Positions 1 to 44,581 of a stretch of 64,000 nt of DNA are shown one piece after another. Below the pieces are notes generated by a model that was not told the DNA's origin, searched no databases, and was given only the letters and a program-made list of their open reading frames with translations. The stretch is from Pelagomonas calceolata (Eukaryota): positions 1,736,001 through 1,800,000 of the forward strand of contig CAKKNE010000004.1 in assembly GCA_918797485.1 (NCBI GenBank). The letters are read 5' to 3'. Position numbers and translations under genes: made by a program. How positions within the stretch are numbered: the first letter of the stretch is position 1; every line of letters starts with the position of its first letter.

Positions 1-3000
1 CGCTCACGCTTGCCGCGCCCCCGCGGCCCACCGTCGCCGGTCCCGGCCCGACGCACAGCCGCCCGCTGTTTCCTGCCTTGCTCGACCCGGAGCTAAAGCA
101 CAGCCGCCCACTCGACCCCCCGGCGCCAGCGTTGGCCGCCGAGATGATTGCGATCCCAGAGCTCGCCGACGCGCTCGCTCCGCTCGTCGCACTCAGGACT
201 CCACCCGACGCAACGTCGCTGCGTCCAGACAACAGGCTCAACGCGCCCCCAAGCCCACTCGTCCCGCTGCCGACGCTCGCGCTCGCGCGTCCGCCCCGGC
301 CGCCGGTCGCCGCGCCGGACCCGACCCGGACGCTCCCGCTGTTGCCAGAGGTCGACGCTCCGGCGCTGAACACTAGTCGCCCGCTCGCGGCGCCCGCGCC
401 AGCGTTAGACGTGCCGATACGCAGCGCCCCGCCGCTGCCCGTCGTCCCCTCCCCGGAGCCCGCGCGGAGGGTACCGCCCGTGAGCGTCGAGCTTCGACCG
501 GACTCCAGGCTCAAGCCACCTCCAGACCCGCTCGTCCCGCTGCCCGCGCCCAGCCGAGTCGCGCCGCCTCGCCCCGACGAGGCCGCGCCAGACCCGACGA
601 GCAGCGCGCCGCTGTTGCCTTCCTTGGACGAGCCTGAGCTGAACACCAGCTGGCTGCTCGCTCCGCCGCCGCCGCCGTTCGCCGTGCGAACGTACACCGC
701 GCCGCCGCTTGTGGCCGTCCCTTCGCCCGTCTCGACGCAGACGCCGCCGCCCGTCGTCCCGGTGCTTCTCCCCGCGCCCAGCGACGTCGAGCCACCCAAA
801 CCGCTCGTTCCACTACCGACGGAGACGCGCGCTACTCCGGCCCGCCCTCCAACGCTCGGTCCAGAGCCGAGGGCAACCGCTCCACTGTTCCCGTCCTTGG
901 ACGACCCGGAGCTAAATGCCAACCGGCCGCCCGACCCACTCGCTCCGCTGTTTGTCGACCCGAGACTGAGATACCCGCTGCTTGAACAGGTGCCCTCGCT
1001 TCCCTCTAGGAAAAGCGCGCCCCCTGATGTCAAGATGCCGCGTCCAGTGCACAAATGGACGGACGAACCACTTTCAGTATCACTACTGCTACCCGCACTG
1101 ATACATACTAGTCCAGCTTGCCCACTTGACGCAGCTCCTGCAGATATGAGTACTGCTCCAATGTTGCCTGATTGAGAAGATCCCGAGCTGAACGTCAGCC
1201 TACCACTCGAACCCTGCACGCCAGAGTTACAGCCCTTGACAGTAACGGCACCACTGCTCACCGAACTGCCTTCCCCTGAAGCTATGTTGGTAAAACCTCC
1301 ACTACTAACGGCGCTTTGACCCGAGTCAATGCGAATGTGAGCTGCTGAACCACTAGAGCCGCTCCCAGCTTCTATACCCATTGTTCCCCCATGACCACCA
1401 GACGCTGTTCCGGTACCAAGTGTGAGCCATCCAGAGTTCCCTGCCATACTAGAACCAGTACTGAAAGTAAGCCTCCCGCTGCTGCCGCCAACACCGCCGT
1501 TTGTGACCTTGACTGTGATAGATCCACTGCTTGTTACGGTGCCTTCTCCTGCACTTACACTGAGCAACCCACCGCTTAATGCGACGGCACGACCAGGGAG
1601 AGCAAGGATGCCTCCCCCTAGCGCGCTGGTGCCAGTTCCGACGCTGATGAAAACATTATTGCCACGCCCCTCGGTCGCAGCCCCGGATCCAATTTCAACT
1701 GCCCCCGTGTTTCCGAGCCCCGCTGAACCTGAGCTATATGCAAGCCGACCACTGATACCCCCAACCCCCCCATTTGTTGTCGACACAAAAATGCTGCCAC
1801 TACTGCTCGTTGCTCCAAATCTACTTGAGATTGACAGGTCGCCACCGCTCTGTAATTGACTCAAACCAGCACACATCTCTAAACTATTCGATTTGCCACT
1901 CATGCTTTTGCCTATATTAACGGACACTATGCCACCTTGGCCATTCTCCACACTCCCAGAGGAACACGCAACAAGGCCACTGTTACCGTTTCGACAGGAT
2001 CCAGTACTAAACAAAATGGAACCTGTACTTGTCTTAGCGTTTGAGCTGGCTAGAACAAGATAACCACTGCTTTGTAGTGAGCCTTCACCAGATGAAATAG
2101 AGATGTGACCTCCCGAGTCAATAGACAACCCTGAAAAGAAATGAAGCGAGTTCGCAATACCATTATGACTGCAGCCCACACTCGCGCGAACGCCGCCTCC
2201 GCAACCTCCTGTCGTCGAGCCAGATCCGACGAGCACCTCGCCGCTGTTTCCTCCGGCGGCCGTTCCCGAGCTGAACACGAGTCGGCCGCTACTTCCGGTC
2301 GCTCCGGCATTGCCGCTTCCCAGGACCAGCATGCCGCTACTCGATGCGGTTCCGTCCCCGCTGTCGACGCTGAAAGCCCCACCGCTGACCGCCGCGCTCC
2401 GACCCGCCGCCGCGATCGCCGATCCCCCAGACCCGCTCGTCCCGCCGCCCGCGCTCACGGCCACGACGCCGGCGCGACCTGCCGTCGACGTGCCGGACCC
2501 CAGGCTCGCCGCCCCTCCGTTCCCGGCCGCCGCGCGCCCCGAGCTGAACGCGAGCCGACCGCTGGCGCCCGCGGTTCCACCGTTTGCCGACGTGATGCGC
2601 ACCAGGCCACTGCTTGCTGCGGTTCCTTCGCCCCCGACGGTCAGCACGCGCCCTCCGCTCGACGCGATGCTGCGCCCGGCCGCAAACGTCAGGCCACCGC
2701 CCGACGCGCTCGTCCCACTTCCCGCGCTCACGCTTGCCGCGCCCCCGCGGCCCACCGTCGCCGGTCCCGGCCCGACGCACAGCCGCCCGCTGTTTCCTGC
2801 CTTGCTGACCCGGAGCTAAAGCACAGCCGCCCACTCGACCCCCGGCGCCAGCGTTGGCCGCCGAGATGATTGCGATCCCAGAGCTCGCCGGCGCTGGCGC
2901 TCCGCTCGTCGCGCTCAGGACTCCACCCGACGCAACGTCGCTGCGTCCAGACAACAGGCTCAACGCGCCCCCAAGCCCCCTCGTCCGCTGCCGACGCTCG

Positions 3001-14410: not shown

Positions 14411-17400
14411 CTATAGTGTATGGTGTGTAATCGGTAGCCTGTCTACTTGCAAAAACACAGGTATAGCGCCTGATCCCGAAACAGCAGTGCCTGTCGTCAA
14501 GCTGAGGGCTCCGCTGCTACCTGCGCTCGTCGAACCTGTTTTGAGAGCAACAGCGCCACTTGCTCCGGTGTCCGATCCCGCAGCCGCTGTTGCCATGACG
14601 AGATTACCACTATCGCGGTCTACTCCCTTTCCCGTGGCCACGCGGACGTTGCCACCACTGCCGCACACAGTTCCACCGCCATCTACTGATATCATGCCAG
14701 CACGATCAGAAAGCGCTGCAATCCCGGCTAGAATACGAAACGAACCACCGGCTTGTGCAGCGCCGGTTGCCATGCATAGGCACCTGCGGGAAAATGGCTG
14801 TTAGGCAAGATGGAAGGCAGCATATTCTTATATACTCACCCAGAATCGCCGCGACACGTAGTGCCCGTGGCAAGTTGTAGCGCACCGCTATCGTCCTCGT
14901 CACCTGAATCAGCTGTGCGTAGCACAAGATGTCCGCTACCAGATGAGGTTCCCTGGCCCGTGGTAATATTTACCTATGATGTTCAATTAATCACGCCACA
15001 CGACTCAGATTCCAGATGGAAACACGGCGCTGGTGAGAGACATCGCCCCCTGGGTAACCCGGTCCACCAACGAGCGTCAAGGCGCCGCCTTCGTCTCGGT
15101 CGCCGCCAGAAGGGCAACAGAGCGCAATTTCACCTCCACTTGCCCGAGTTCGTGCTGATGTGTCACCGGCTGCAACACACAAGTCTCCAGCTGAGCCACC
15201 GCGCGCAGTTCCGACGCAGAGAGTCAAGCGCCCGCCTGTTGCCCCCTCGCCGTCTCCCGATCGCAAGTTGACAACTCCTGAGTTACCGTTTGACGATGTT
15301 CCGGAACCAAATCGTAGCATCCCTGAGGTACCTTCGCCCTCGACTACATTCGAACTCAGGAGCACTGCACCGGACGTGTCGCCGTCTCCGCCTTTCGCAC
15401 CAAGGTTGCCTCCAATTGCGATTGTCGCGATGCCGCCCGTGACTCTCGCTGCGCCACCAATAGTGCTTGGACTTGCTGAAGCTGTGGATAGCGCTGCTCC
15501 GGCTTCGAGGATCACGATGCCTGCGGCGTTGCCACGGGTCGCTCCAGCTGCAAGACTTGCGTTTGCGCCGTTTCCCTCGTCGCTGTGTCCGGCGGCAAAA
15601 GTAGCAATACCACCCGGGCCCTTGTATCCATTGCCAGCTTTTATCCGTGCCATGCCTCCACGTGCTCCATAGCCCGCCAATGCAATGGCATCTCCAGGAT
15701 GTCCACGGCGACTTGCCACACTGCTTGACCCGATCTCAATTGAACCGCCACCACTTCCCGCTGTGACAAAAGTAGTCCCTCCACGGCCGTCTGCTGGCCC
15801 GCCTGTTCCCAGGCGAGCAGAGCCTGATGATGCGCCTAAAAGTGTATCCGACAAGTCAGCAGAGCCACTAGTCAATTCTGCAGCACCGCTATTTCCGCTA
15901 GCGGCGGCTGCTTTGAATGAAATACTCCCGCTCGCGGCATCTGCACGTCCCGCGCCAGATGCAAATAGGGTGGACCCACCACGGAACGTACCTTTTCCCC
16001 CGGCCATCATAACGCAGCCACCACATGCACCGCCGTCGCCGAGGCACGCACTTGTGCAAGTGCTTTGACCGGCACGAAGAAAAAAGGTGCCCGATGGCGC
16101 TTGCATCTCCGTAGTGTCGCCCGCATTCGCAACAATGCACCCTTTAGCTTCATTCCCCCCCGATGGACTGCGGCGGACTCCCACCCCCCCCGCGCGAGCA
16201 CACGCACTTTTTCTTGCGGACATTGTGATGTGACCGACATCTGAGGCTGCACTAGTCTCAAGAGTAATCGCGCCACCCACAAGTGCAGCTACACCTAGAG
16301 AACCGCTATTTCCCCGCTCACTTTCTCCGCTTACTATGGTCACAACACCACTGACTTGTCTGCCACCGACGCCGCTGACGAGGCTAACAGTCCCACCATT
16401 TGCGCATGAAGATAAACCCGCGCTAAGGCTCGAGGAGCCACCTAAGTCCCCTGCCATTCCAGCATGTACCAGCGCACCCCCCCCCAGATCGCTAGCGCTA
16501 CCTGCTTGACACCCAACCTGGCGACCAGGGGCGCTGCCGCCGCCGCGACCACTAATCCTGACTCGACCGCCGATGGTGCCGCACCCTGCACTAAGTTGCA
16601 AGTCTCCTCCAGACATTGCAGAGCCTCCTTCGATGGTGACATTACCGCTCGAGTCACGAGCACATCCTGCCGCAAGACACAGTGCCCCAGAGGCACCGAG
16701 CAACGGACAGCCTGTGCCGAGGACAGCAGACCCGGAGCTACCCTGCTTTGCCTCGCCGGTCTGTATGGCGCAGTTTCCTGTACCACCACCGCAAGATCCT
16801 GCGGCAGGCGAACGTATGGCAGCGCAGCCGCTCCATGCATTATCACCGCCGCCTGTGCTCAGCACAACATGACCGTCCCCGTCTTGCCCACACTTACCCG
16901 CAGAAATGTTCGAACTACCGCCGTGATAGTTCGACTGGTCACCTCCTAAGAGCAGAATTGCGGAACCGATAGCAGTATGCGCGTTTGACATGCCCGTCAG
17001 AGAGATACTCCCGCCACCTGCGAGGTGACCTGACGTACCCGAACATAGATAGATTCTTCCAGCACGTTGCGCAGCGCCGGTACTGAAGGTACCTACGCCC
17101 GAATTGCCGCCTACGGAGCAGTCACCTGTCGAGACAAAAGCATGGCCGCTCGCAACATTGGCAGCCGTGCTGAGCGCAGCACTCCCTCCAGGCCCGGTCC
17201 CGATGACAAAGTTGCCAGCTGCTGAATCAGTGCTGGCACCAGCATAGAGTCGATGACAGCCCCCGCCTTTGCCTGCACGGAGGGTTGCAGTAGCGCCACT
17301 GCCTTGGGTCGAATGGCCTGCTGAGACTAGCATTCGTCCACTCTGATCGCGGGTAGCTGACCCGCCCATCGCACTGAGATCTCCACTATCTCCCGCGGCT

Positions 17401-23400: not shown

Positions 23401-26400
23401 ACAAGCACTGCCTGTGCTGCATTTATAGAGGTAGAACCCCCTGATGACATTTTGCTCCGACCACCCCCCACCACCAACTCGCCACCGGTTTGTGAGTTCC
23501 CAGTCCCCGCGCCCACAAGCAACGGCCCGTCTCTCTGCTGCCCAGAACCAGAACGCAATGAGGGGGCGGCACCAACACCCCCTCGACCAACGAGTGATCC
23601 TCCCGCGCAAATCTGGATGCTTCCTCCAAGGACTGATCCTCGACCTGCTAGTTGCACCAAGGTGCCACCCTTTGCACCAGCACCGCTTGAACCAGCCTCA
23701 ACTCCTACACCGCCTCCCTCGCCCACTAGCGCAGTACCTGCATTCAAGTTTACTTGTCCGCTTCCGCCAATACCACTCGACCCCGTGCTAAAGAAACCGT
23801 GGCCAGATCTATTGTGGCGGTTTTCTCCCTTTGTCTGTATGCAGTAGTCCCCGGACTGGTGCCTTAAGCCGCTTCCTCCTGCTATCTTGATAGCCCCACT
23901 CATGTGACCAGTGGCTGTCTTTATCAGTGCCGTGCCGCTAGCTCCAGTCTCGCTCTTGCCGCTGCAAAGACGCACATCGCCGCCCGCCCCCCGTGTCCCA
24001 CTACCGCTCAACACTCGAGCTCCTCCGCCAGTGGATCCAGCACCAGCAGTAGCCCGGATAAGCCCAGCACTGGCAGCGCCTGATCCTGATCGTAGGCAGA
24101 GTTTCCCCCCAGCGTCGAACCGGGACGCATACATGAAGGCCGTTATCGAGCCTGTTGTCTGGCTGTTGCCACTCTTAAGCTCTAGGGACCCCCCGACCTC
24201 ATTTTGCGGACGGACCTGACCCGACGTAATGCAAATGCCACCGCTTGTCTCATCTTCTTCTCCCCGATAAGTGTTCGTTGTTGTCAATGCAATTGCATCA
24301 TCGCTACTGTCGCGACCAATCCCAAGCAACTTTATGTTACCACCGATTCCGTTTATGCTGTGACCTGACTCGAGTATTAGCATGCCACCCTCACCAGCAT
24401 TGCCGGCCTTCATGCCAATCGAGCCGCCCGCACCGGCGTTGCCCGCGGACGCGCCTCCACTCTCCAGCAATATTACCCCAGGGACAAATTCCGAGGCCCC
24501 TCCATTCAAGAACACGTCCCCGCCAAATTCGCCAGTTCCACCGTGTGCACAGACCTCACCTTTGCCATGAATCCTCATCGCTCCCCCAACAACAGCTGCC
24601 CATGGACTAGTTGTGCTGCCACTTGACTGCCCAACACGCAATGCCATTTGAAAGTTGCCGCCTCCTTGCGACAGACTTGGTTTTGTCTGCAAGCTCACAT
24701 GGCCAGAAGTCTCAGATAGTCCACTGGCCACCAACACCCGCCCACTTTTCTCAATTCCGGGATGGATCTCCGAGCCGCCACTCTTGAAATGCACCTGGCC
24801 ACCTGTGGTACTGGCTGTACTCGAATCTGCTCCGAAGCACACGCCGCCACCCTCGGATATGCTACCTGCACCTCCCCTGACGTAAATATCGCCACCACCA
24901 GACAAACAGCTTTTACCTGCGTGAACATCTGCAGATCCACCGCGCCAACTCCTCCTGGGCCCGCTTCCTGCCGAGGCCACAATCGCCCCCCCCCGACAGC
25001 ATTCGCGTCCAGACACAATGCCAATGTGCCCAGCTTCTCCAAATGGGACATTCCCGGTCTCCATTTTCACTGAGCCCGAGTCTCTGCTTTGATTTGTGAC
25101 AACATTGAGTTCAGCGGAGCAGCCGGCAATTGTCCGAAGCAAGCCACCAGCAAAGGATGCGCTGTTTCCCCCGCGGAGCTGCACATTGCCGCCAGAGCCC
25201 CGACAGCAACTAAAAGCTGCCCAGAGACGAAGGTGACCCGCTGACTTTCCAGGGGCACTGGCGACATAGATATCGCCGCCTTGCGATCCATCAGAAAGAC
25301 CCGCGTCCAGTTTTACCCGCCCCGCAGCGGCCCAGGCCCCAGACCCGCCGCTGACCGATACCATACCGCCAGACAGCCCGCGCCCGCCGAAGACATTTCC
25401 GGTACCACCTTGTCCGTCTGGCGTTTCAAAGCGGGGGATCGAACCAGCGCCCAGAGATAATAATGGAGATGCTCGATCACTGCCGACCCCGCCATCCACG
25501 GTGATTGCCATGCAGCCGGAAGCTCGTGTCGAAACGCCGGTACCCAGGCGCACGGGGCCGGACGTCCCGCTGGCCGCTTTTCCGCTCGACACGCGAGCGC
25601 TGCCGCTGTTTCTCATGCCTGTGCCACTGCCGATCGCGACGCTACCACTCGAAGCTGTGCTGCTAGTGCCCGAGGACATGGCGACGGTTCCCCCTGGAGC
25701 CTCCCGACCGTTACCTGCCGCGAGCTTGAGATCTCCGCCTTGACGGCCATGGCCGGCTCCGCCACCAATACACCCACCTGCGCCACTGTGAGGAGTTCCG
25801 CTTCCAGCACGGACCGCGACGCCGCTCCCGTCGAAGTCAAACGACGAGCCGCCGCAGAGATTCACCGCGCCAGCTCTTCCGGCCGCACCACTTCCTAGAT
25901 GCACACATCCACTCGTAAACGTGGTCGCAGGCTGCGATGCTATGCATACAGCGCTCTTCTTGCCATAGCCATTAATGGCGACTTCACCTCCATGCGTCCC
26001 TCCCGAGACTACTGCGCTGCCACCTGGACCGCACCCTTTCGAATTACCACTCAGGATGGAAAGTGTAGCTTCGGACGGTCGCGAGCAACCTAGGATACTT
26101 ATTGAGCTCGACTCACTCCGATTGTGCGGTTTCGATGCTCGAAGGTAAATTGAGCCCGCCTGTGCATCTTTGGGGGCATCCGCACGCCCGGACGACATGA
26201 GAGTGTTGGCTGCTTTGCTCATAATATCAACATCTTCATTTGCCCGAAGGACTACTTGTGTAGATCTGGATTTTATATGGCCGAAACCGGACCTTAGAGC
26301 AACGTCTCCCGCTCTGGACGTGTGAGAGCAGTGTGACCGTATAACCACAGCACCCGAGTTCAAATTTCCTCGGCCAGAACCTAAGCTTATGTCACCACTT

Positions 26401-29400
26401 TGCAGCGACCCAACCTCAGTACCCAGAGTAACACTGGCGCCAAGGAGGTCGAAAGAACCGCTATTCATCTGGCCGTTTCCAGCCGTAACCGTTGCTTCGC
26501 CGCCGTTGGGAGAGGAACGGCCCGCCGAATATCCAATATCACCACCTGCGCATACTTCAGAACGCCCAGAGCCGCAAACGACGTCACCACCGGTCGCGAC
26601 GTGCCCTCGACCAGATAGCAAAGTCAAAGACGCCCCATTATTCCGCGCACGACCAAGAACCACGCCGCAGTTGTTCAATTCAGCAACTATTCGACTGCTA
26701 CGATAGCCGCCACCAGCATTTAGCGCAAGGCAGTCATTCGCAGAAATGGCCAGGGCCCGTTCGCCAATCCCCGCACAAAGCCTTGCCTCCCCGGCAGTTC
26801 GTGCGTTGTCACTGGTCAACAGATCAATGCTGCCGCCACGTATTCCACTTGCAGCATCGCCAGCACGAAAGTGTATGCCACCAGACGACGCATCTGAGGC
26901 GCAACCTGTCTCAACGGAGAGGTCGCCACTATGGGCGTGATTATCCGAGCGAACTCGCAGGTTCGAAGAGGCGCGATCGCTTCCCATTTCGACTCGATAT
27001 CGTCCAGCCTGTGCCTGAAGGCCGGCAATAGAGTCCAGTGCAAGCGACAATGTATTTATCTGATGAAAGTCTCTCATTTCCATGTCCGTATCGGGTAAGG
27101 AGCACGAGGGAAGTACGTCGACGTGTTCTGGGAAAACGTTGCGTAATTCCTGTGCAATAAGTCCGCGGACCAAGGTTTCGTTGCAGGCATGCATAGAACA
27201 CCACGCGTTAGCATAACCATATGTCTGGAGCCCAACTTTTCCGAGCCGCCTGTGAATGTCATCTATATCAGCGGCAAAAAGATCCTTTTTAATACGTTGG
27301 TCCGATCCATCGGTCGCGTCGGGTGTATTCACGTTCACGTCCGATATCAGTTCTATAATACCACTTTCGTTTTTCTCGAGACGTACACGCTTGGCTCCAA
27401 TTCCAAATCCGATGCATCCATCTAAAGAAATTATTCCAAGCTCGCCTTTTGTACCAGCAATAAGCTCAACGTCACCCTGACTCAAGCACGCTTCCGCTGA
27501 TTTTTCATCCCCTTTCATTCCTTTCATCGAAAGAGTACCCGTGTCGCCAGTGGCGCACAGAGCGTCGCCAGTTGCGCTTGCCTCCGAGTCACGCATTCCC
27601 GTGGCGGTGGCACTGCCATGGCCAGAGCTAGCGCCAGAGCTTGTGCCTGTTTGAAGACTAACTGTGCCACCTTTCCCTGCGGAATTGCCAGTTAATATGC
27701 TGACAATTCCTGTGTCTGCTGACGATAAAGAGTCCGAGGTTGCAACGGTCACAGCTCCCGTGGCACCGCCTTCTGTTTTCCCGGATGACACGTTTACCTC
27801 CGGCGCAGTCGTTTTTTTTCCAGCGCGCATGTCAATGATACCACCGTCGCCAACCCTCAATGTCCCAACGTTATTCGCAGCGCCAGTCATAACGATTATG
27901 CTGTTTCCCGATGCAGCACGGGCCTCCCCGCCGGTGCCGCTCTTGGCTGCGGCCGCTGCAACGCGCACATTGCCGCCTGTGAAAAGCATACTACCGCCGT
28001 GACCTTCCTTTGAAACGTTTGCGCAACACAAACATGCTGCGGCCTCGGTACCACCAGTGATGGCTATATCACCATCAGGACTCGACTCTATCACGGCCGA
28101 CGCACTGGCAGCATCGGACTCGCCCATGGCCATTTTCACGCAGCCACCATGAGTTTCTGCATCACTAGTTCTTAGTGTTGTCCGTCCCTTAGCCCCTGCG
28201 CCGACTCGGACAGCACCAGCTGTCGTAATGATTCGAGCGGCACCGCCTGTCCCGGCACAAGAGCTTCCGCTCGAAACAAGAACTCCGCCGCATGAAGCTA
28301 CACTTACGTTGCCTCTCTTTTCTACCGTGAACTCTATGTCTCCCGCAACACGCGAGCTCCCCGTTTCCACGAAGACGGCACCTGCTCTGCCCGCGGTCCC
28401 GGAGCCCATGCGTAACTTGCCCGTAGCTCCAGATGCTGTCTGAGATTGTATTGAGACGCCGCCGGTCAGAGCCGCATCGCTAGTGCCCGACATGAGCTGA
28501 AGGGCGCCTCCAGTGACCTTTTCTGTGGCCCCGGCGCCCAACGCGATCCCAGCAGCCCCAACGCCCGATTGGCCACATGCAAGGCTTAAACCGCCTGAAA
28601 CGTAAGCAGAATTACCAGTTGCAAGAAGAACCGCCCCGGACCGTTTTTGTCCTGTCCCAGAACGCACAAAGATGCGGCCGGAATTTCCCGTGGTAGGACC
28701 GTTGGACGTCTCAATGTTCACGTCCCCACCAAAATATCCCGATGCACCCGAAGCGGCTGACAGGTGGATAGATCCACCCGAGTCGACGCGTGAAAACCCG
28801 GCAGCGAACGAGGCGCTGCCACCACAAAAAGTTGAGTCATCGCCCCCAGTGACCTGCGAACAACAAGGATAATAAAGAAAAAGGTCAAAGACGCGGCAAA
28901 TCAGGTGGTGACATTATGCGTAGCGCCAGCCGTTACACAAATGGATGCGCCTTGACCTACCTGAGACCGACCAGCAATGAGGGTGAAGTTCCCTCCACAT
29001 GTTCCATTTCCCGTCTCTAGGGAGAAGGTGCCAGAATTTAAAGCTTGCGCGACGTTTGTGCTACTCCCCTTGTCTGTCGCCAGGAAAATATATCCCGACG
29101 TGCCCTCCTCCAAGATCTCACCTTGACACGCACCTGAAATCAAGGCCATACCCTCTGAGGCACCTGCGTTTCCAGTGGCGGAAGCCGGATTCCACAAGCC
29201 TCCGTTAAAGCGAACATTTCCGCCACATGCGCCGAACGTCGTATTGCCTATGCAGACCGCAACCGTTCCCGTCGAAGCAGAGCTCGATGCTCCAGTAGAT
29301 AGAATAGCGTCGCCAGATGTGGGAGGTGTACTGCCAGTTGCACATGCCAGCAAGCCACTCGACGCGGCATCGCCTGTCGAGACCCGTGCGGATGCATTCG

Positions 29401-32400
29401 AGGCCAGGCCGCCCATGGCAGTGAGTTGACCGCCGACGCCACTTGGTGCAACTGAGCCTATAATTGCGACTGTGCCAGAGCAAGAGCCAGAACCAGAGCC
29501 GGAGCATATCGTAATGGCGCCCGCAGCAGCTGCCAAGTCACCGCCCATATTACTAGTGGTAGTCCCGCTCGCAAGAATTAGACTACCTGAGCCAGCACTG
29601 GAGCCGACACACGAAGTATTAAAATATATCACTCCAGTACCTTGGGCAGTGGATGATCCGGTGACTAGAGCGACGGTTCCGGCGACGGCCTCCTGGGTAC
29701 TACCCGATGATAGAGAAAGATTGCCAGAATAGTCTCCGGAACCCGAAGACAGGTTGAGTGAGCCGCCGGGTCCCAGAATGGAGACGGCGCCACCGGGGGT
29801 ACCTCTCCCTGCCTGCAGAGACAAAGCTGCATTAGACTCTGTAAGAGGATTAGTAGTATCCCCGACTCTAAAGCAGATGTCACCACCATCACTTTGTGCA
29901 TTACCTGCTAAAAGTGAAAAGTTGCCAGACGCAGACGCATCTCCAGAGCGCAGGGATATGTCCCCGGCTTCGAGCCGCGCGCTTCCACTCGTCGTACCAC
30001 CGCATCCAGAGCAGATGGATACACCTGCAGCGACCCCGGCCCCCGTTCCGACAGCGACACAGATAGCTGCACCAATACCCGAACCTCCAGAGCCGACGAG
30101 CAAGCTAATCGCACCGCCCTGGTCGCCAGTGATCGCATCACCCGAGCTGAGGCGCAGCATGCCCGAGTTTCCGGTCCCTGTAGGCGCGGTCAAAGCATCG
30201 AGTGCACCTGTTTGGGCGTTTGTGTGCGCCGAGGAGAAACTAGCTGCTCCCGTCTGAGAGGACCGCCCGTCACCGCTGATGCACTTGACATCACCACCCT
30301 GAAGTGTCGAAGACCCGCCCGTGATCACGAACTCTCCACCTTCTGCCGCCGACTCCCGAACCGTTCGAAGTGAAACCGCGCCCCCAGATTGGTGGGCATA
30401 ACCAGCCACAGCGATAAAAGTTGCAGTCTCACCGCAAGCACTCATGTTGATAGCGCCAGCGGTGCCCGTCGTTGCGTTCCCTGATTTAATTACGATTGAT
30501 CCAGAGGTTTCTGACGTAGCGGTGCCACTCTGAAATTCCAGGCTTCCACTCGAACCCGCCTCGCCTCCCGAATTAGCTGATGCTACAAGCACTGCTCCGC
30601 TAAAGTGTGCACTTTCGCCAGAGCGCAGAATCACAGAACCTCCCGTGCAAGTTCCGCTCATTCCACCGGTAAGTGTTGCAGCTGCACCGGCGCCACTGTG
30701 TGCACAACCACAGGTAACGCATATTTCGCCCGGTTGCTTACCTGCACCTGTTGCGACAACTACTGGCCCAGAGTCGCTCGTGGCATTCCCCGTGCAGATA
30801 CTTAGTTGCCCTGTGCAGGCGCCAGTGCTGGATAGGCAACTCACGACCCCGCTCCGAGTTGTTGACCCCCCTGACTCAAGGTTTATGCCCCCACCTTGAG
30901 GACTGCTTCCACCACCGGCGCCTAACAGAACCTCACCGCCCGAATCATCCTTTGCTAGGGTGGCACCGGCCAATACCGCCAAATTTCCAACCAGCTCGCT
31001 TGAATTGCCGGTCTCGAGAACGACTGGGCCGCTACTAGTCTCGGCTGCTCCAGTTGCAATGACATATGTGCCCGTGGCATGACCAGAACCTGTTGATGCG
31101 TTTAGGTTGCCAGAAAGTAGATTTCCGCTCCCGCCCAAAATGGTAGCCGAGCCGCCATTTCCCAAATTTGCAGAGCCCAAGCGCACCTGGACACCACCAC
31201 CATTCCCATTCGTGGCACTGCCGCCGCTCATTATCATATTTCCGCCAAAAAAACCGGCACCACCAGCGGAGCCCACTACCCGACCACCCTGGTCTCCGAT
31301 ACCGGCCATAGCAGACACGCTTCCACCAACTTTTGCATCTCCAGCAGCAAGGCCCACAGCACCGCCGCCTGGCGAGTCTGAAGTGCCGGTCACGAGCCGA
31401 ACCGCACCACTGAATTCCCCGGAAGTCGAGTGTCCAGACAGCCATGTGACGTTTCCAGAGTTGACTGCAGTGTTGGACATGACCTTAATCATTCCGCTGT
31501 CCTTGGCCGTGCCACCCTGTAAGCAGACGCCACTTGCTGAATTGTCCGAACTTCCACCGTCCGCAACTATAGCATTTGTTGCCTGCCCATGCTTGGCGCT
31601 ACCCGCAGAAAGCGTGATACCCCGAGCCAAACTTGATTCGGTTGGTTTTGAGTTTCCCGTGATGAATTCCACAGTTCCTACAATGCCTGACGCTGCGTTT
31701 CCCGTGACAAAGGCGAGTTTCCCTGTCGCATCGGTGCCCCCCTCCACGACGTCAGCTGTTCTAAGACAAGCGAGCCCAGATGTACCAAGAAGACCGAGAC
31801 CAGTTGCGAGGGCCACGGTACCGCCGCTATCCGCACCGCCGCCCGTGGCTACCACGTTCCCCCCCTCAACATCTTGCATGGTTGATAATGCTGCGGCGAT
31901 TGAAAGATCGCCTCCCCTCGCACCACCGTTACCAGCAGTCAAGTTAATGGCACCAGCAGTAAACGATGCCGCGGTTGGGCCCGTGGCCAGAATGACGCTC
32001 CCGCTAGTGACGATATCAGACCCTGCAACAGCGTGGCCGGCGCGGCAGTTTACACCGGCAGATGTCGCTTGAGCTTCACCTACACGTGCCAGGACCTCTC
32101 CAGTACTTCTTACGGTGGCAATTCCGGTGGCGAGTAAGAGTTTTCCACTCGAGGTAGAGGGTACGCATTTGTTGGCAGTGAGTAGAGTAATATTGCCGCT
32201 TGTTGAACCGACGCCGCTCCGGGCTTCAACTGGACCACCGACCGCGTTGGAAGATCTACCTGCTACTGCGGCAATGAAGCCACCGACGGCGTTCGTGTCT
32301 TCTGCCCCGCCTGCATGTATGATGAGGTCACTATCGGCGCTACTTGAGCTGGCATCGCCAGTTGAAAAGCGTATCATCCCAGAGTCCGTTCCTAACGCTG

Positions 32401-35400
32401 CGCCGCTCGCAACGAGAACACTTCCAGACGCGCGAGTGGGTCCGTCGGTTTCGACGCCCAAGTTGCCTGACGACTGACGTATAGCTCCACCAGACACGGC
32501 TGTCGCACTCCCACCGAAACTTCCGGAACCTGCTTCGCCAACCGAAGCGCCTGCTGTTAAATTAATGGCACCACCGGAACCAATGCTACCCGCACCGATG
32601 GCCAGAGCGATATTGCCACTACGCCCGCCTGCGGCGCAGCCAGTGGCTAGTACTGCCTTGCCGGACTCACCAGCAGTAGCAGTCTTTGTGTCGCAAAAGA
32701 TTGTGCCCGAAGTTCCACAGGTCCCAGCATTCTTGGTGTTGAGATTAACGGCGCCGCTGGTGGTAGTCGTCGAGGCACCTGTGGCGATTATGACAGCACC
32801 ACCAGACGAGGTAGGAGCCTCGCTGCTGCCTGCAATCAATTCAGCAGAACCTCCAGATGCGCCGTTTGACCAACCGGCCACCGCAATAGCGCGACCACCG
32901 GCCCCTGTGAAAGGTTTGATATTGTCACCACCTGCTGCACGTACGAAACCACCGTCGGCAAATTCACCCGATGCTGTCCCTCCAGAACAAGATAAGTCAC
33001 CAGCGCTCGCCGAACCAGTTCCAATCAAGAGCATTAAGGAACCAGCAACACCGGTCGCAGTGCCCGTTGAAAGTTCTAGAGACCCAGATCTACTAGAAGC
33101 AGAACTTCCAGTACGACAAAGAATACGACCCGATACCATGTTGGCTGGACACGTCGTGACGTAAATATCGCCAGAGGTTGTTGACAACGACTTTCCAGAA
33201 GATATATAGATAGCCCCGCCGTTGGCGCCGTCATCCCCCTGGCAGCCGCCGCCTGATCTTAGTGTTGCATTGCCACCGGCACCGCTCGTACCGCCCCCCA
33301 CACGAAAATCTATGAACCCTGCGGTACTTTCCAGGGCGTCACCAGACAACAGAGACAGCATGCCCGAATTTCCGCCGCGCGCAGAGCGGGCAGAAGTCGT
33401 GCCTGTAGCAAACCACATGGCACCGGATACACCTGATTTGCCGGCATTTGCAGTGTAGAGCAGAATACTGCCACTAGAACTCTCGCTCCCCCAGCCAGAT
33501 CGTAAATCTATGTCGCCTCCCACCCCTTCCTGCGAAAATCCTCCGTAAAGGCGAGCACTGCCACCGACATCAGTGGCGCCGCATCCCCCTGCTGTTCCTC
33601 CGGAGACATAAATAGCACCGCCCGAGCCGCCTTCTGCGTCGACTGCAGTGCCAGGCCCACCGCGAAGACCGACGTCACCACCGCAAGCAGCAGCGTCTTC
33701 TGTCTCGCCCCCACGGATTGACAAAGCACCGCCTGCTGCCGAGTCGCCGGACCCAACAGCAAGGTCAATATCACCACCAATACCTACAGTCGCAACTCCG
33801 GAACTGACCAATGAGTGACCCGAGTTCCCAAAGGAAGCCGAGCCTGTCCTCGCGATGGTACTTCCAGATGTACCGTCACTACCAGAAGAAGCGGTCGCAA
33901 CACGGAAGATGCCCGAGGATGTTAATGTACCGTATCCAGAAACAAAATTGAATGTGCCGCCCGAAGAGTATGCAGCTGTCCCGCCATACGCACGTACGTT
34001 TCCGCCAACATCATCCTCCTTGCAAAGTCCGGACGCTTGACCCCCACAGACGTAAAGACCACCACCGCTACCACCGCCATAGCCGTACGTACTGCTACCG
34101 TGACCAGCTACGATGCAGACTGCACCGCCGATAGCTTCGTCAGCGGAGCTTTCGCCAGCAAGAGCGAGGACATCACCGCCGTCACCCGAGTTGCCCACGC
34201 CAACAAACATCTCCACTGATCCGCCCATACCTTGCGTGGCCGGTCCCGATGAAGTGATAAATCGGCCTGACGCTCCATCAGAAGTTGTGCCTGTAGCAAA
34301 GTGGATCGATCCTGAAACTCCCGACATACCGGCATTTATGGTATCCAAGGAAAACGTTCCTGATGTTGTCATCGCCGATTGCCCAGATACCACTCGCACG
34401 CCCCCCCCCGTCTTATCTGCAGCTCCACCACCACTGGCCGCAGAGGCGCTCGTACTTGAAATTATCACAACATCTCCCGCAGTACCTGAAGTCCCACTTC
34501 CGACTGCAAGGTGGACGTACCCTGCACGTCCCCGGGTGGCAGTTGATGTGACTACCCGGCACGACCCAGTTGCGCCACCAGCAGCTTCCTCGTCAAGTCC
34601 CGTTGCACCGGTCGAGAGATCAATGGCGCCAGACACACCAGCCTCGCCGGCGTTCGCAGTTGCGAGATCAATAACACCCGAAGACCCTCCTTCACCATAA
34701 CCACTGCGCGTTAGCAAGGAGCCACCACAGCCCGTTCGTGCAAATCCACCAACACAAGAAACACTGCCACCATCGTCGACGAATGCACCGCCTTCTGCAC
34801 CTCCCCCCAGAACACAAATAGCACCACCACAGCCTCCACCGCTTATCTCGTTGTCGGAACTTCCTGCACCGGCAGAGATAGATATGGCGCCGCCCACCAT
34901 GGCGTCTGCGGTGGTCTCACCTGCAATTACAATGACACCACCACCATCACCCGAATCGCCTATACCAACTCGCAGCCAGATATTTCCGGCGGCACTGCCC
35001 GAGGATGAGTCACTTCCACTATTGCAACTGGCTTCGCCTGAATATAGGGAAACACAACCAGAAGCACCATCACTTGCCGTGCCCGTTTCTACATTGATTC
35101 TACCTGAAGTCCCTCTCGCCCCGCCATCCGGAGTCGCCACATCCAGCCGCCCCGAAGTCGTGACCGTAGACGATCCGGCAACAAGCCCCAGGTAACCACC
35201 AGTAGATTCGGCCGAGGTTTGACCAGCTGCTATTTGTCCAGCTCCACCTTCACTTGAGTCCCCTAGACCAACATGTACGAAAATAATGCCACCAGTGCCG
35301 GAGGTAGCTGATCCAGAGGCCAAAAATAGATATCCGCTGCATCCTAAGGCACTTGATCCCGTTGAGAGGGTGATAAGTCCGGAGACACCCTCGTCGGCCA

Positions 35401-38347
35401 CGTTACCTGAGCTCACTAACAAAGGCCCCGACGATGCAGCACAAGCCGCCGTCGTTCCTAAATGAACTGCCCCTCCGTGGCCTGCGTGCGCGCGCCCACC
35501 TTGCGCAATAACGCCACCGCCGAAGTCTGCAGCGCAAGTTCCACAGGCTTCGCCACCAATAACATCTACTTCGCCGCCATCACCACCATCATTGCTCTGT
35601 GAGCCAGTGCCATCACCGGCAAGGACTCGTACGGCTCCACCGCTGTGTGCCCAAGCCGTCGTTCTTCCCCCAGCGAGATCAATCGTACCACCATCTGCAC
35701 GAGAAGAAGTTCCCGTTGAGACAATAATTGCGCCACTGATGCCGCCCACCACTGATCCCGTCCCAACACCAACAATCCCACTTGACGCCCCGCAGCCGCG
35801 GCCTGTAGTCAGCAAGAATCCGCCGCTTGCTGCGATTGCAGAGTTCGTGGCAATAATGGAATCGCCTGTGCCGCTGCCGTGATTGGCCGCTCCAGCGTCG
35901 ACTCTAACTGTGCCGCCGCCGCCTTCAGTTGAACTTCCACCGGAAATGCAAATGGGGCCTCCGCGATCACCAGACGCTTCGCCAAAGGCCGAACCTCCAA
36001 GAACCTTGATGGATCCACCATCGCCGCCAGATGCTGCATCCGAAGAGCAACCGGCTCCACCGATCACGCTGATGTCACCGCCAGTTGCTCGCCCTGCGCC
36101 CGATGCAATGCCGACTGTCGTCCCATCATCGATTGCACTCGTGCCAGCAAGGGCTAGAGCATCACCCGCATTTGCGCCAAATACTCCATCACCGGACCGT
36201 AGCGCGATATTGCCTTCGGTATTCTTCCCGGTGGCGAGGTGAATTTTGCCACTGTGACTATTCAATGCTGTGTTTGTTGTCATCAAGCGGCAGGTACTAT
36301 CCATATCGGTTGCAGAAGCGCTGCTCCTGACCGCCACACGGCCACCCGCAGCGGTACCGTGCCCCCCAATAGCGTGTATGCATCCGCCGCTTGAGGCAAG
36401 GGCGCTACCCGCTGCGGTAAAAATAGAGCAGCTTGGCGACGATGCACCGCCGCCAGCCGCGCAGTTTATTTGCCCGCTACAACCATTTGCGATGGAAAAA
36501 TCAACTGCCCCCCCCACGGACGTACCTCGGCCTGCGCTTAGGGCAATGCGCCCAGCTAGTTCAGCAGCACTTCCAGTTACACAGACAGGGCCGGCATCTG
36601 CGATAGCATTGCCCGTGGCTGCGGCAAGACTTCCCGTCTGCGAGACACCGGAACCGGTCTGCGCGGTAATCCTGGGTCCGTCACGATGTGAGCACGGCGT
36701 GTCAATAATGCAACTACCTGTGGCCTTTCCCGCTGACGTTCCGGTTCCCAGTACAATATCCGCTCCATCTCCACTAGCAAGGCACGTCATTCCGGCCTCT
36801 ATGTGTATACCTGCTGCGGTAATTTGTCCTGAGCCACCTGCGAGGCTGACAGACCCCCCCTTCTTTGTCAGGCTACTACCGGCGGACAGGCTGATTGCAC
36901 CAGACTTATCTCGTGTTGAACTACCAGTGCCCACCACCAGAGAGCCACTCAGTCCGCTGGGACCTGAATTTTTTGTCTCAAGAAACACGTGACCAGACTG
37001 ATTTCCCCCAGTTCCAGTGAGTATTGTAGTAGTTGAAGAGATCATGTCTTCTGTGTAGCCACCCTGTAAGCGAACAAAGCCGCCAGCGCCCATCTCTTCC
37101 GCTGTGGCACCTTGCACAACAACAGCACCGCCCTGTCCCACAAGCGAAGACGAGGCATTTCCCGCCTCCAGCTTGATGTCACCACCGGGGTGACCAGTTC
37201 CCGACTCAATCGCTACGTCAGCTCCAGTGCGGTGATAGGTAGCACCTGTGTCCAAAGCAATGGACCCAGAAGTCTGCGGAGTGCTGCCTGTCTCAATTGA
37301 TATTTCGCCACTGCTCGCAGAGTCTCCACTTTTAATGAAGACGCTGCCAGAATAGCCATCAGTTCTGCTGGTATCTGCCGTGGTAACTGAGAGATCGCCA
37401 GAGTGGCCGGTACTAAATGTAATCTCGCCGGGCGAGGTCCCGCTACGACCGGCTTCTAGTGTCACCTGCCCCCCAGCCCCGGATCCAGATGCCCCGACGG
37501 CTAGAGATGCCGTGCCGGCCGCGCCAGAACTCGCCCCACAAGTTGCAAATTGCACATCACCAGTCGCACGTGAGCTAACTCCAGTGACAAAACTAAGGGT
37601 GCCGCCGCCAGCAGCGTCAAGACGTGCACTACCGCTCACTCCCTGTTGACTGTAGCCTGTTATTAGTGCGACGGCTCCGCCTGTGCCAGTAGATGAAGCA
37701 CCCCCAAGAAATGTAAGCCCACCCCCAGTGCCTTCGCGCGCAGCTCCGCCAGCAACTTGCACTGTGCCAGCAACACCATTCTTTTCAACAAATCTATACC
37801 CTGCGCCACTGCCCGCGGAGAAACTCATGTCACCACCTCCGCCTTGGAGCTCGTCGCCGCTACCTGCTTCGAGGATGAGTGCGCCACCAGCAGCGTTCAC
37901 GCCTTCTACCTCACCAGCAGCTACGGAAACATCACTGGCGGAGCCCAGCTTAATGACCTCGTCGGATACAACGAGTTCAAACGCCGTCCCCGAAGAGTGT
38001 AGCTGGCCACCACCAAAAAGGCCATCTGGTTCCAAGATGAAGTCACCCACAACTCGCGTTTCGGGAACCCAAGTAGTTGGACACGGGGCATCAAAAGTTG
38101 TTCCGTGACATTCGCGTGTAAAAATGGCGCTTACATCCAAACATCGCTGGTCGGATGCACACCAGGCACATGACTCAGCGGCTACGCAACTTCCACAATC
38201 CAAATAATCGTCGCAGGCAGGCTCTTTAGGACAACTCGCTTCTAGCCCAGATACGCCATCCAAGTCCAAGGATTCGCACTCTGCCCACGTCACCAGTGGT
38301 AAGGCATAGCTGAGCACAAGAAGTAGCCCAGTGGAACGCGTCGCCAT
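1..38347 (-). CDS. Giant (>=~12,670 aa, 3'-incomplete) secreted Gly/Ser/Ala/Thr-rich repeat protein with PSI-like domain and two internal peptidase S74/ICA domains; 6 exons
   Basis: ATG at 38347 starts a signal-peptide-like MATRSTGLLLVLSYALPLVTWA. Introns 28854-28912 (GT-AG), 21454-21543 (GT-AG), 14974-15041 (GT-AG), 14784-14839 (GT-AG) and 14411-14469 (GC-AG) each join the flanking repeat-coding frames in phase. Repeat-type coding continues to position 1, apart from small indels at ~2200-3800 that are probably consensus errors. Confidence 0.85.
14470..14973 (-). CDS. Giant protein exons 4 (14840-14973) and 5 (14470-14783)
   Basis: Exon 4 reads VNITTGQGTSSGSGHLVLRTADSGDEDDSGALQLATGTTCRGDSG. 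The intron GTGAGT...CCCGCAG (14784-14839) joins it in frame to ORF 14411..14773. Confidence 0.8.
15042..21453 (-). CDS. Giant protein exon 3: remainder of second S74/ICA domain and Gly-rich repeats
   Basis: The acceptor GCTGCAG|G TAT AAC is in frame with ORF 14991..21467. The donor is GAT|GTCTCT at 15041. Confidence 0.85.
21181..21572 (-). other. Peptidase S74 / ICA autoprocessing chaperone domain 2 (split by intron 21454-21543)
   Basis: The spliced sequence reads SDSRIKRDISYNVNLGAVYEGFTRVPLASYKYSEAW...RGVIAQELHHV...VDKQGLVLDLIGALQAK. Confidence 0.85.
21544..28853 (-). CDS. Giant protein exon 2: Gly-rich repeats, first S74/ICA domain, start of the second
   Basis: The acceptor TTGTTCGCAG|GTCACT at 28854 is in frame with ORF 21540..28721. 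The exon ends at SDSRIKRDI-S with donor TC|GTAATT. Confidence 0.85.
22177..25942. repeat. 400-bp near-identical direct repeat (22177-22576 and 25543-25942) inside exon 2
   Basis: Both copies encode ASQPATTFTSGCVHLGSGAAGRAG...SGPVRLG with only a few substitutions (FDFDG vs FDVDG). Confidence 0.95.
27001..27305 (-). other. Peptidase S74 / ICA autoprocessing chaperone domain 1
   Basis: SDQRIKKDL (Ser and Lys at +5), YGY..AW, RGLIAQELRNVFPEHV, INTLSLALDSIAGLQAQ. Confidence 0.85.
28913..38347 (-). CDS. Giant protein exon 1 (3145 aa): signal peptide, PSI-like domain, Gly-rich repeats
   Basis: Part of ORF 28901..38554. The donor AAT|GTCACC at 28912 precedes the ORF stop. Confidence 0.85.
38078..38215 (-). 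other. PSI (plexin-semaphorin-integrin)-like cysteine-rich domain
   Basis: CDDYLDCGSCVAAESCAWCASDQRC...CHG...CP matches the C-x-C-x2-C-x5-C-x-W-C-x5-C pattern. Confidence 0.75.
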
Positions 38348-38398
38348 GGTATAAAAAGTGATATCCCGGATCCTAACCTTAAACCTTATTACTACTGC

Positions 38399-38422
38399 GG
38401 TACCGTAGGTACCTACGGTACC
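38399..38422. promoter_or_regulatory. 24-bp perfect palindrome GGTACCGTAGGTACCTACGGTACC upstream of the giant gene
   Basis: Lies ~50 bp upstream of ATG 38347. An identical copy is at 57148-57171, upstream of the HTTM-like gene. A regulatory role is inferred only. Confidence 0.4.
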
Positions 38423-43991: not shown

Positions 43992-44581
43992 TTTTGCTCC
44001 GTTGGAGCAAAACCCCATTCCCCAATGAAATAGTCCAATGAAACCGTGGTTGGAGACAGTTCTGAGTGCTATTGGAAGTCCCTCAAAAAACCGATTTTCC
44101 CCAATAAGTACGATTTTTGGTTTTATTAAAATTGATTACGAAACCCCTCCCCCTTTTTGCCCAAAACCCCTTTTTGCCCTTCTCAAACGTTTGGTAAGAG
44201 GCAACGCTGTATTTTCACGACGAAATACGGCATAATCCGGTTGTGCGTTTCATCGCCATGAAGTTCAATCCCCATGTCATTCCAACGACGGAAACGTGGA
44301 CAGCCTGAGAAACCGGATAGAAGGAACAGAGTCCAACCCTTGGAGATCCACTTGAGCTGCGCCATGACGCGCTTGTGGTTCTTGTGGCTCTTCGGGTCGC
44401 GGTTGGGCAAAAAGGGGTTTTGGGCAAAAAGGGGGAGGGGTTTCGTAATCTAAATTAAACCGTACTTATTGGGGAAAATCGGTTTTTTGAGGGACTTCCA
44501 ATAGCACTCAGAACTGTCTCCAACCACGGTTTCATTGGACTATTTCATTGGGGAATGGGGTTTTGCTCCAACGGAGCAAAA
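43992..44581. mobile_element. Non-autonomous long-TIR (MITE/foldback-like) element
   Basis: 43992-~44179 is the reverse complement of ~44405-44581, with one indel region. Each end carries a TTTTGCTCC-nnn-GGAGCAAAA hairpin. An outer 16-bp inverted repeat lies at 43964-43979 and 44610-44625. Confidence 0.75.

What the first reader, a model, noticed from the sequence alone, without database searches (positions are those of the whole stretch)
1..38347. A >12,600-aa secreted, self-cleaving, phage-tail-fibre-like polyprotein in a eukaryotic alga
Seen: the four giant minus-strand ORFs are exons of one gene, because five 56-90 nt introns join them in phase. The architecture is signal peptide, PSI-like domain, Gly-rich repeats, S74/ICA domain (Ser at about residue 3662), repeats, second S74/ICA domain (Ser at about residue 5573), then more than 7,000 aa of repeats. 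Known: S74/ICA domains trimerise, chaperone folding of the upstream triple beta-helix and self-cleave at the Ser of SDxRxK. They do this at the C-terminus of phage tailspikes such as K1F endosialidase and in the eukaryotic factor MYRF. Inference: this is a secreted polyprotein that assembles as a trimer and cuts itself into pieces of ~3,660, ~1,910 and >7,000 aa. These could form very long extracellular fibres, such as theca or cell-covering material, an adhesin, an extrusome or a virus decoy. I do not know of a described system with this architecture.
Basis: partly seen in the sequence, partly recalled or inferred. Interest (0 to 1): 0.95.

Follow-up and report, generated by a model that had tools for sequence, protein, structure and literature searches.

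The report
Giant multi-segment self-cutting algal fibre
A marine microbial eukaryote has a spliced, transcribed gene for a protein of over 12,600 residues, made of glycine-rich repeats with two internal phage-type folding domains; it likely forms a secreted three-stranded fibre that likely cuts itself into segments, and water moulds carry related genes with the same inner layout.

Summary
All five introns (56-90 nt, one GC-AG) are spliced in RNA contigs and unspliced in DNA contigs. The serines lie at 3662 and 5573. dN/dS is about 0.3 against a 90%-identical relative. The frameshifts at 2.8-3.8 kb look like assembly errors in a repeat array, and the gene runs off the window. Both S74/ICA domains are real and closest to the MYRF ICA structure. 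They belong to a family of internal ICAs that also occurs in oomycetes, and one homologue has three copies. Best reading: a secreted triple beta-helix fibre folded in sections by internal ICAs and probably cut there. Trimer formation and cleavage were not tested. Against simple cleavage: the MYRF zipper is missing, ICA2 has lost its FPE motif, and some homologous copies lack the serine. Several internal ICAs in one protein is the new part. Where the fibre ends up is unresolved. Interest 0.7.

The parts
28913..38347 (-). Exon 1 from the ATG at 38347 (residues 1-3145): signal-peptide-like N-terminus, PSI-like domain, ~15-residue Gly-rich repeats
   Evidence: RNA contigs begin at 38313-38371
38282..38347 (-). 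Predicted signal peptide, residues 1-22 (read by eye; no predictor run)
   Evidence: sequence
38123..38215 (-). PSI-like Cys-rich domain, residues 45-75
   Evidence: PF01437 E 1.3e-5, 25.8 bits, above cut-off 23.1; only weak plexin matches in PDB, E 1.1 and 3.6
28854..28912 (-). Intron 1, 59 nt, GT-AG
   Evidence: skipped in X4, X7, X16; unspliced in X3; kept in L001-L005
21544..28853 (-). Exon 2: repeats, ICA1, repeats, start of ICA2
27003..27305 (-). ICA/S74 domain 1, catalytic Ser3662 and Lys, FPE motif intact
22171..25942 (-). Two 406-nt copies, 98.8% identical (22171-22576 and 25537-25942), 3366 nt apart, inside segment 2
   Evidence: contigs break here; L001 and L004 lack the part between the copies
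21183..21572 (-). ICA/S74 domain 2, Ser5573 and Lys kept, FPE lost, split by intron 2
21454..21543 (-). Intron 2, 90 nt, GT-AG, inside ICA2
   Evidence: skipped in X4, X6, X15
15042..21453 (-). Exon 3: rest of ICA2, then repeats
14974..15041 (-). Intron 3, 68 nt
14840..14973 (-). Exon 4 (134 nt)
14784..14839 (-). Intron 4, 56 nt
14470..14783 (-). Exon 5 (314 nt)
14411..14469 (-). Intron 5, 59 nt, GC-AG
1..14410 (-). Exon 6, runs off the window; from about 13,214 down it is a 91-aa super-repeat made of six ~15-mers
1..4446 (-). Recently duplicated repeat block (1-1736 is 97% like 2725-4446); the copy at 2806-3795 carries indels that look like assembly errors; 2169-3703 is probably a collapsed tandem array
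   Evidence: tables 4, 7 and 8 (contig depth 87-112 against 14.8 in DNA run X1)

Best explanation
This is a spliced, transcribed host gene for a protein of over 12,600 residues with two internal ICA domains, which likely enters the secretory pathway, is predicted to fold as a three-chain beta-helical fibre, and likely cuts itself at one or both ICA serines. Mechanism, all inferred from ICA biology: three chains meet in the ER. Each ICA trimerises and nucleates folding of the repeats upstream of it, so a fibre too long for a single terminal chaperone is folded in sections. Once a section is folded, the Ser-Lys dyad would cut just before the Ser. That would give a PSI-capped segment of about 3,640 aa, a 1,911-aa segment capped by ICA1, and a segment of over 7,100 aa capped by ICA2. 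The last segment should need its own nucleator beyond the window edge. At the TLP-12 rise of 4.8 A per strand, with two strands per 15-mer, the segments would be roughly 230, 120 and over 450 nm long (half that with one strand per 15-mer). The 20-25% Ser/Thr content would allow a glycan coat. The product is likely a fine extracellular filament of the flagellated cell. Shown: gene, splicing, selection, domains, dyad, family. Inferred: secretion, trimer, cleavage, glycosylation, location.
For: Splicing. dN/dS 0.27-0.30 over 3,483-4,981 codons against L003-L005, with no stops, and 14 of 14 indels in multiples of three in L003 and in L005. The family profile hits the MYRF ICA structure 7DC3 at E 1.8e-17. 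The AlphaFold model has the ICA at pLDDT 84-97, and Foldseek finds 7DC3 (E 1.3e-6, rmsd 2.6), then K1F 3GW6, T5 4UW8 and GA-1 3GUD. A beta-strand motif G-x-h-x-h-x-small occurs 4.1-4.4 times per 100 aa in all segments, 4-6 times the shuffled count, with modal spacing 15. The same motif density (3.0-5.2) holds in 9 of 9 family proteins checked, against 0.2-0.5 in 3 of 3 outgroup proteins. Of 36 ICA domains with 100 or more residues after them, 34 continue into Gly-rich sequence. P0003 has three S74 domains. ICA domains trimerise and self-cleave via the Ser/Lys dyad, also in an internal position (PMC3742443 passages). TLP-12 precedent.
Against: The helix after ICA1 is about 18 residues; the positions of the MYRF zipper (L683-L690, needed for processing) are occupied by resumed repeats. 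ICA2 lacks FPE and sits on a long branch. Nine of 96 family domains with a readable motif lack the Ser, including copies 2 and 3 of P0003. The repeats match no Pfam family, no PHROG and no PDB sequence, so their fold rests on the ICA and on the sequence pattern. No single RNA molecule spans the gene: contigs break at the 406-nt repeat and at the 3' array. The C-terminus is unseen and could hold a membrane anchor.
Confidence: 0.6

Rival explanations
1. The internal ICAs are folding registers only. The trimeric fibre stays one continuous filament of about 0.8 micrometre or more, uncut or cut but still stacked, at one or both sites.
For: Non-Ser copies in multi-ICA homologues P0003 and P0004 and in five further domains; short helix without the MYRF zipper; FPE loss in ICA2.
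Against: 87 of 96 readable family motifs keep the Ser. Both window copies keep Ser, Asp, Arg and Lys, and L002 keeps both motifs, L003 and L005 the first.
Confidence: 0.27
2. On location (compatible with either mechanism above): the segments are the fine filaments of the stramenopile flagellum, either terminal or lateral filaments of tubular hairs, or the thin non-tubular hairs.
For: All 3 species-named homologues among 30 looked up are zoospore-forming oomycetes (zoospore habit recalled). A radial-spoke gene next door shows a flagellated organism. Filaments of distinct sizes are described (PMC2108286 abstract), and non-tubular hairs are 10 nm or thinner and 0.5-1.8 micrometres long. PITG_01491 is detected in 16 of 22 sporangia samples and in 1 of 39 other samples.
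Against: The expression signal is confounded with batch: all 16 positives come from one later set of runs, and the 4 older sporangia samples are zero. MAS1 is on in cleaving sporangia, where PITG_01491 is zero. PITG_01491 is not in the oomycete flagellar gene list. No S74 term was found in two zoospore proteome supplements. The N-terminus is PSI-like and matches no mastigoneme chain in the PDB copy. Earlier AI notes report other fibre genes fused to the mastigoneme EGF module, which are better candidates.
Confidence: 0.2
3. On location: cell-coat, mucilage, adhesive or extrusome fibril, such as the fibrillar layer of a perforated theca.
For: Signal-peptide-like start, PSI cap, high Ser/Thr. 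TLP-12-type glycofibrils occur free in water. Pelagophyte thecae have fibrillar layers (PMC12168098 passages).
Against: The perforated theca is class-specific, while the family spans oomycetes. The organism's lineage was not tested. There are no localisation data.
Confidence: 0.4
4. An endogenised viral fibre gene, a decaying gene, or an assembly artefact.
For: ICA folds are common in viruses (213 BFVD hits at E<=0.001). One Atlas feature hit for the repeats is a virus cluster, with weak recognition. The assembly has frameshifts.
Against: Five spliced introns, purifying selection and housekeeping neighbours. No relative was found in phage records or viral contigs. The internal-ICA rows form a 103-of-111-row group set apart from the terminal-ICA rows by a long branch (SH-aLRT 93, quick tree).
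Confidence: 0.03

Closest known systems
TLP-12 glycofibril and candidate Amoebophrya protein A0A8J1ZHD7 (bioRxiv 10.1101/2025.09.30.679562, section 7 read in full)
   Same: Eukaryotic giant (19,853 aa) repeat protein with an ICA domain, proposed to fold as a glycosylated triple beta-helix fibril; function unknown.
   Different: 12-residue GSxxSx7 repeat, alveolates, one C-terminal ICA as described. Here: ~15-mer and 91-mer Gly-rich repeats, a PSI cap, at least two internal ICAs with thousands of repeat residues after them, and stramenopile relatives. Its supplement (Fig. S5) could not be read.
MYRF ICA domain (PDB 7DC3; PMC3742443)
   Same: Closest solved ICA by sequence profile and by fold. 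Internal position, Ser/Lys dyad, C-terminal fragment stays as a trimer.
   Different: MYRF has one ICA, followed by a leucine zipper and a TM helix, and releases a transcription factor. Here the helix is short and fibre repeats resume directly.
Phage tailspike and tail-fibre C-terminal chaperones, Peptidase_S74 PF13884 (K1F 3GW6, T5 4UW8, GA-1 3GUD, 6F45)
   Same: Same fold and SDxRxK motif, downstream of a beta-rich shaft.
   Different: Single, terminal and discarded after cleavage. The shaft repeats here match no PHROG and no phage record.
Uncharacterised oomycete 'Peptidase S74 domain-containing' proteins: PITG_01491 (Phytophthora infestans), OQR97563.1 (Achlya hypogyna), CAK4417441.1 (Aphanomyces euteiches)
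   Same: Same ICA subfamily with Gly-rich repeats on the flanks.
   Different: Short gene models of 392-859 aa, probably fragments; no function in the library searched.
Tubular mastigoneme shaft proteins (Ocm1-4, PnMas1-3, Sig)
   Same: Secreted, stramenopile proteins of flagellated stages.
   Different: They are EGF-like shaft subunits. No such module was detected here.

Membership tests
Peptidase_S74 / ICA domain | Profile match above the family cut-off | tested here: met
   ICA1 32.3 bits against cut-off 22. ICA2: downstream half alone 16.2 bits, below cut-off; whole spliced domain E 8.7e-34 against a family profile; hhalign 99.4%.
Peptidase_S74 / ICA domain | Ser-Lys dyad in SDxRxK | tested here: met
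   Ser3662 and Ser5573
Peptidase_S74 / ICA domain | ICA fold | tested here: met
   ICA1 model matches 7DC3, 3GW6, 4UW8, 3GUD. ICA2 was not modelled.
Peptidase_S74 / ICA domain | G-x-IAQ-E...FPE motif | tested here: inconclusive
   Met in ICA1; ICA2 keeps GVIAQE but lacks FPE
Peptidase_S74 / ICA domain | Homotrimerisation | not tested
Peptidase_S74 / ICA domain | Folding-dependent self-cleavage | not testable with these tools
   needs protein work
Phage tail fibre / tailspike with C-terminal chaperone | Single ICA at the C-terminus | tested here: not met
   two internal ICAs, over 7,100 aa after the second
Phage tail fibre / tailspike with C-terminal chaperone | Viral gene context | tested here: not met
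   introns and housekeeping neighbours
MYRF family | Ndt80 DNA-binding domain before, and zipper plus TM helix after, the ICA | tested here: not met
   no such Pfam match in the stretches scanned; short helix followed by repeats
TLP-12-type glycofibril protein | 12-residue GSxxSx7 repeat | tested here: not met
   periods are 15 and 91
TLP-12-type glycofibril protein | Triple beta-helix core | tested here: inconclusive
   the strand pattern fits; the single-chain model has pLDDT 42.6 and is uninformative
TLP-12-type glycofibril protein | Dense O-glycan coat | not testable with these tools
   Ser+Thr 20-25%
Tubular mastigoneme shaft proteins (Ocm/Mas/Sig) | EGF-like module | tested here: not met
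   the N-terminus is PSI-like, with no EGF or mastigoneme match; I did not verify that mastigoneme chains are in the PDB copy searched

The most novel reading that the evidence does not exclude
One gene works as a ruler polyprotein. Internal ICA domains fold a near-micrometre triple beta-helix in sections and cut it into filaments of fixed, unequal lengths, and these are the still-unidentified fine filaments of the stramenopile flagellum, conserved from oomycetes to algae.
Probability: 0.15. Interest if true: 0.92.

Novelty: new variant of a known kind. Interest (0 to 1): 0.7.

Why it matters
ICA domains are known as single terminal chaperones, or as MYRF's one internal switch. A family of eukaryotic giant proteins that uses several of them internally, some catalytic and some not, suggests a way to fold and size fibres hundreds of nanometres long. 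It makes sharp predictions: two neo-N-termini, three filament lengths, and a further nucleator at the unseen C-terminus. It also gives a candidate gene for unassigned extracellular filaments in stramenopiles and for orphan cryo-EM glycofibrils. The gene is found in marine metagenomes from at least five studies and metatranscriptomes from four, so the fibre may be common in seawater. Databases hold the oomycete relatives only as short uncharacterised models.

Tried and rejected
No genome was held, so the C-terminus and paralogues could not be read; a search by locus handles was not possible. The single-chain fold of three 91-mers gave pLDDT 42.6 and was not searched further. Single-sequence PDB searches found nothing for the ICA region, the repeats or the N-terminus (one search gave only weak hits). 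Phage records: no match. Viral contigs: no relative. Prokaryote genomes: one 21-residue match to the tail of P0012 outside the ICA, rejected; P0012's database label 'archaeon' stays untested. Word-based homologue searches were crowded by low complexity: 1, 0 and 6 hits. Atlas: the repeat hits score 0.97 but recognition is 1021, which is weak; the N-terminus scored below 0.9. RNA contig depth was not used to rank expression against neighbours, as the tool advises. The P. infestans life-stage table in PMC5322657 is cut before PITG_01491; PMC3734169 supplements do not list it. The sporangia pattern in PMC12054190 is batch-confounded and counts as weak. The shorter ICA1-ICA2 spacer in L001 and L004 equals the 3366-nt repeat spacing; I read it as likely assembly collapse, not as a natural variant. 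Plus-strand ORFs over the gene were treated as antisense shadows and not studied. The tree is a quick one; the careful search did not finish. It used 111 of 123 extracted domains (110 residues or longer). Literature searches that bear on novelty found no description of a multi-ICA eukaryotic fibre. Searches were poorly targeted, and subscription papers and bioRxiv supplements were not visible.
Full report
Observation. The minus strand of 1-38,347 holds four ORFs of 2,158-3,591 aa and an open-ended 938-aa ORF, all about 23% Gly, 15% Ser and 12% Ala. Laying public contigs on the window confirmed all five proposed introns. The four 3' introns (21454-21543, 14974-15041, 14784-14839, 14411-14469) are skipped in runs X4 and X6 (4 of 4 each) and in metatranscriptome X15 (2 of 4), while DNA run X1 crosses them unspliced on one 18,559-nt contig. 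Intron 1 (28854-28912) is skipped in 3 of 3 RNA runs and not in DNA run X3. X4, X6 and X7 are only guessed to be RNA by the tool; the skipped introns show that they are. The last intron is GC-AG. In X4 the transcript is covered by contigs of 12,342, 382, 3,044 and 17,579 nt that break at a 406-nt internal duplicate. This fits one mRNA, but no single molecule spans the gene. The spliced frame is open for 11,424 codons, with SDxRxK at exactly 3662 and 5573.

The left end. As assembled, the frame stops at 3741. The region 2725-4446 is a 97% copy of 1-1736 that differs mostly by small deletions. Of the 12 indel rows shown for it (5 more were not shown), 10 are contradicted by all four runs. These contigs merge several copies, so a real damaged copy is not strictly excluded, but long-read error is the simpler reading. 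Contigs over 2169-3703 have depth 87-112 in DNA run X1, against 14.8 for the single-copy contig, and loose ends at both borders; the one I read by hand (2169) continues in repeat register. This hints at a collapsed array of roughly six units of about 1.6 kb, which would add over 2,000 residues; depth is not a firm copy number. The length to the window edge is about 12,676 codons, and the C-terminus is unseen because no genome is held.

It is a functional host gene. Against relatives L003-L005 (90% nucleotide identity) dN/dS is 0.27-0.30 over 3,483-4,981 codons with no stops, intron 1 is kept, and 14 of 14 indels are multiples of three in L003 and in L005. The neighbours are a radial spoke protein, a DEAD-box helicase, a glutamyl-tRNA synthetase and a Rab GTPase. 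The best holders are cultures of one organism and marine metagenomes. I infer a flagellated marine stramenopile, probably a plastid-bearing one; the lineage was not tested.

Domains. PSI (residues 45-75) and the first S74 pass Pfam cut-offs. The second S74 is split by intron 2 and is confirmed by a family profile (E 8.7e-34) and by hhalign (99.4%). A 74-sequence profile hits the MYRF ICA structure 7DC3 at E 1.8e-17, far above phage chains (E 0.004-0.1). The AlphaFold model of ICA1 is confident over the domain and matches 7DC3, 3GW6, 4UW8 and 3GUD. The rest is a ~15-residue repeat: a G-x-h-x-h-x-small strand occurs 4.1-4.4 times per 100 aa, 4-6 times the shuffled count, with modal spacing 15. 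From about residue 7,800 it is organised as a 91-mer of six such units. These repeats match no Pfam family, PHROG or PDB sequence, and a single chain of them did not fold with confidence.

Family. A search of 1.84 billion representatives gave 128 relatives; 80 of 128 carry [ST]DxRxK. With a profile built partly from these same proteins, 140 domains were found in 134 of 135 sequences. Of these, 87 have Ser, 9 another residue and 44 no readable motif (many are fragments). Of the 36 with at least 100 residues after them, 34 run on into Gly-rich sequence. So the internal position is the family rule. P0003 has three S74 domains about 370-390 aa apart, of which the second and third lack the Ser; P0004 has two, the second without Ser. 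An intron-rich locus (L006, 39% identity) has the same repeat-ICA-repeat layout. Of 30 proteins looked up, 3 carry species names, all oomycetes (Phytophthora infestans, Achlya hypogyna, Aphanomyces euteiches); one is labelled 'archaeon', untested; the others carry no species. The taxonomic range therefore rests on few names. In a quick tree, 103 of 111 domains, including both window copies and the oomycete ones, sit apart from terminal-ICA rows on a long branch (SH-aLRT 93, not starred). No close relative was found in phage records, viral contigs or prokaryote genomes.

How it most likely works. ICA domains trimerise, help the upstream chain fold, and cut before the Ser with a Ser-Lys dyad; in MYRF they do so internally and stay on the C-terminal piece (PMC3742443, passages). 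I infer a secreted homotrimeric beta-helix folded in sections, each nucleated by the ICA at its C-terminal end, and likely cut into pieces of about 3,640, 1,911 and over 7,100 residues (confidence 0.6). The fibre itself I put at about 0.85. Cleavage at ICA1 is more likely than at ICA2. Against cleavage: the helix after ICA1 is only about 18 residues and lacks the zipper whose mutation blocks MYRF processing; ICA2 lacks FPE, which is present in 98 of 109 motif matches; and non-catalytic copies exist in the family. The uncut or partly cut fibre is therefore a real rival (0.27).

Where it goes. This is unresolved. A flagellar-filament role fits the named taxa and the published dimensions (PMC2108286 abstract; bioRxiv 10.64898/2026.09.11.750887 passages). 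PITG_01491 is detected in 16 of 22 sporangia samples and in 1 of 39 others (PMC12054190 supplementary rows and Table S1). However, all positives come from one later batch, the 4 older sporangia samples are zero, and MAS1 is on in cleaving sporangia where this gene is off, so the evidence is weak. It is absent from the flagellar gene list of PMC3471859 (supplement search). No S74 term occurs in the supplements of PMC12221091 or PMC12223298. The N-terminus has no mastigoneme EGF module. I give flagellar filament 0.2 and coat, mucilage, adhesive or extrusome fibril 0.4, with the rest unassigned.

Comparison and novelty. The TLP-12 preprint (10.1101/2025.09.30.679562; section 7 read in full and other passages) reports a glycosylated triple beta-helix fibril and ~20,000-aa Amoebophrya candidates with a C-terminal ICA. 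A giant eukaryotic ICA fibre is thus a known kind. Its supplement was closed and might show internal ICAs. What appears undescribed, in searches of an open-access library, is a eukaryotic family with several internal ICAs, catalytic and non-catalytic, within a 15-mer shaft. Other papers seen: PMC5322657 (one supplement row), PMC3734169 (supplement search, empty), PMC12168098, PMC6492006, 10.64898/2026.10.13.758971 (passages) and PMC12220804 (reference-list passages only). Earlier AI notes from this scan report related protist S74 fibres and internal S74 domains in a phage and a CPR bacterium; they are leads, not support. Verdict: real, expressed and conserved; a new variant of a known kind; interest 0.7.

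Noticed in passing
window 3303-3335 and 5171-5443 (tables 5c, 7, 8): Contigs of other loci share short stretches of the 91-mer, so paralogues with the same repeat exist in this genome; one is a 2,720-nt contig at single-copy depth in DNA run X1.
   Followed up: no
window 1-2815 against 4403-38347: GC at third codon positions is 0.62-0.66 in the terminal repeat array and 0.46-0.52 in the rest of the gene, which suggests recent homogenisation of the array.
   Followed up: partly
window 61809-63998 (+) and 60341-61885: An open-ended gene with IPT/TIG and fibronectin III matches. The CryoSeek preprint also describes an IPT-domain glycofibril; no link was tested.
   Followed up: no
window 38398-38486, 57142-57179: Short 9-nt tandem repeats built on GGTAC/GGTA words, just upstream of the gene and between genes; they are multi-copy in DNA run X3.
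   Followed up: no
window 43992-44581: A 188-nt inverted repeat, 93% identical (43992-44179 and 44405-44581), possibly a MITE-like element.
   Followed up: no
window 45054-47051 (+): Glutamyl-tRNA synthetase with an N-terminal extension that resembles a bipartite plastid-targeting signal (pattern recalled), and an apparent in-frame intron near the HIGH motif.
   Followed up: no
window 51739-53286, 55103-56731, 57189-58922: Three long ORFs with no Pfam match above cut-off; the last looks membrane-bound.
   Followed up: no
L014 4079-9067; L015 1730-10753; L017 3-8581: Tandem arrays of terminal-ICA fibre genes in a bacterium-like contig and in giant-virus-like contigs.
   Followed up: no
P0096: An outgroup protein with two ICA domains in direct tandem and no Gly-rich shaft.
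   Followed up: no
L001 4050-7301; L004 7168-11190: The ICA1-ICA2 spacer is shorter by about the 3366-nt repeat spacing; assembly collapse is likely, but a natural length variant is not excluded.
   Followed up: partly
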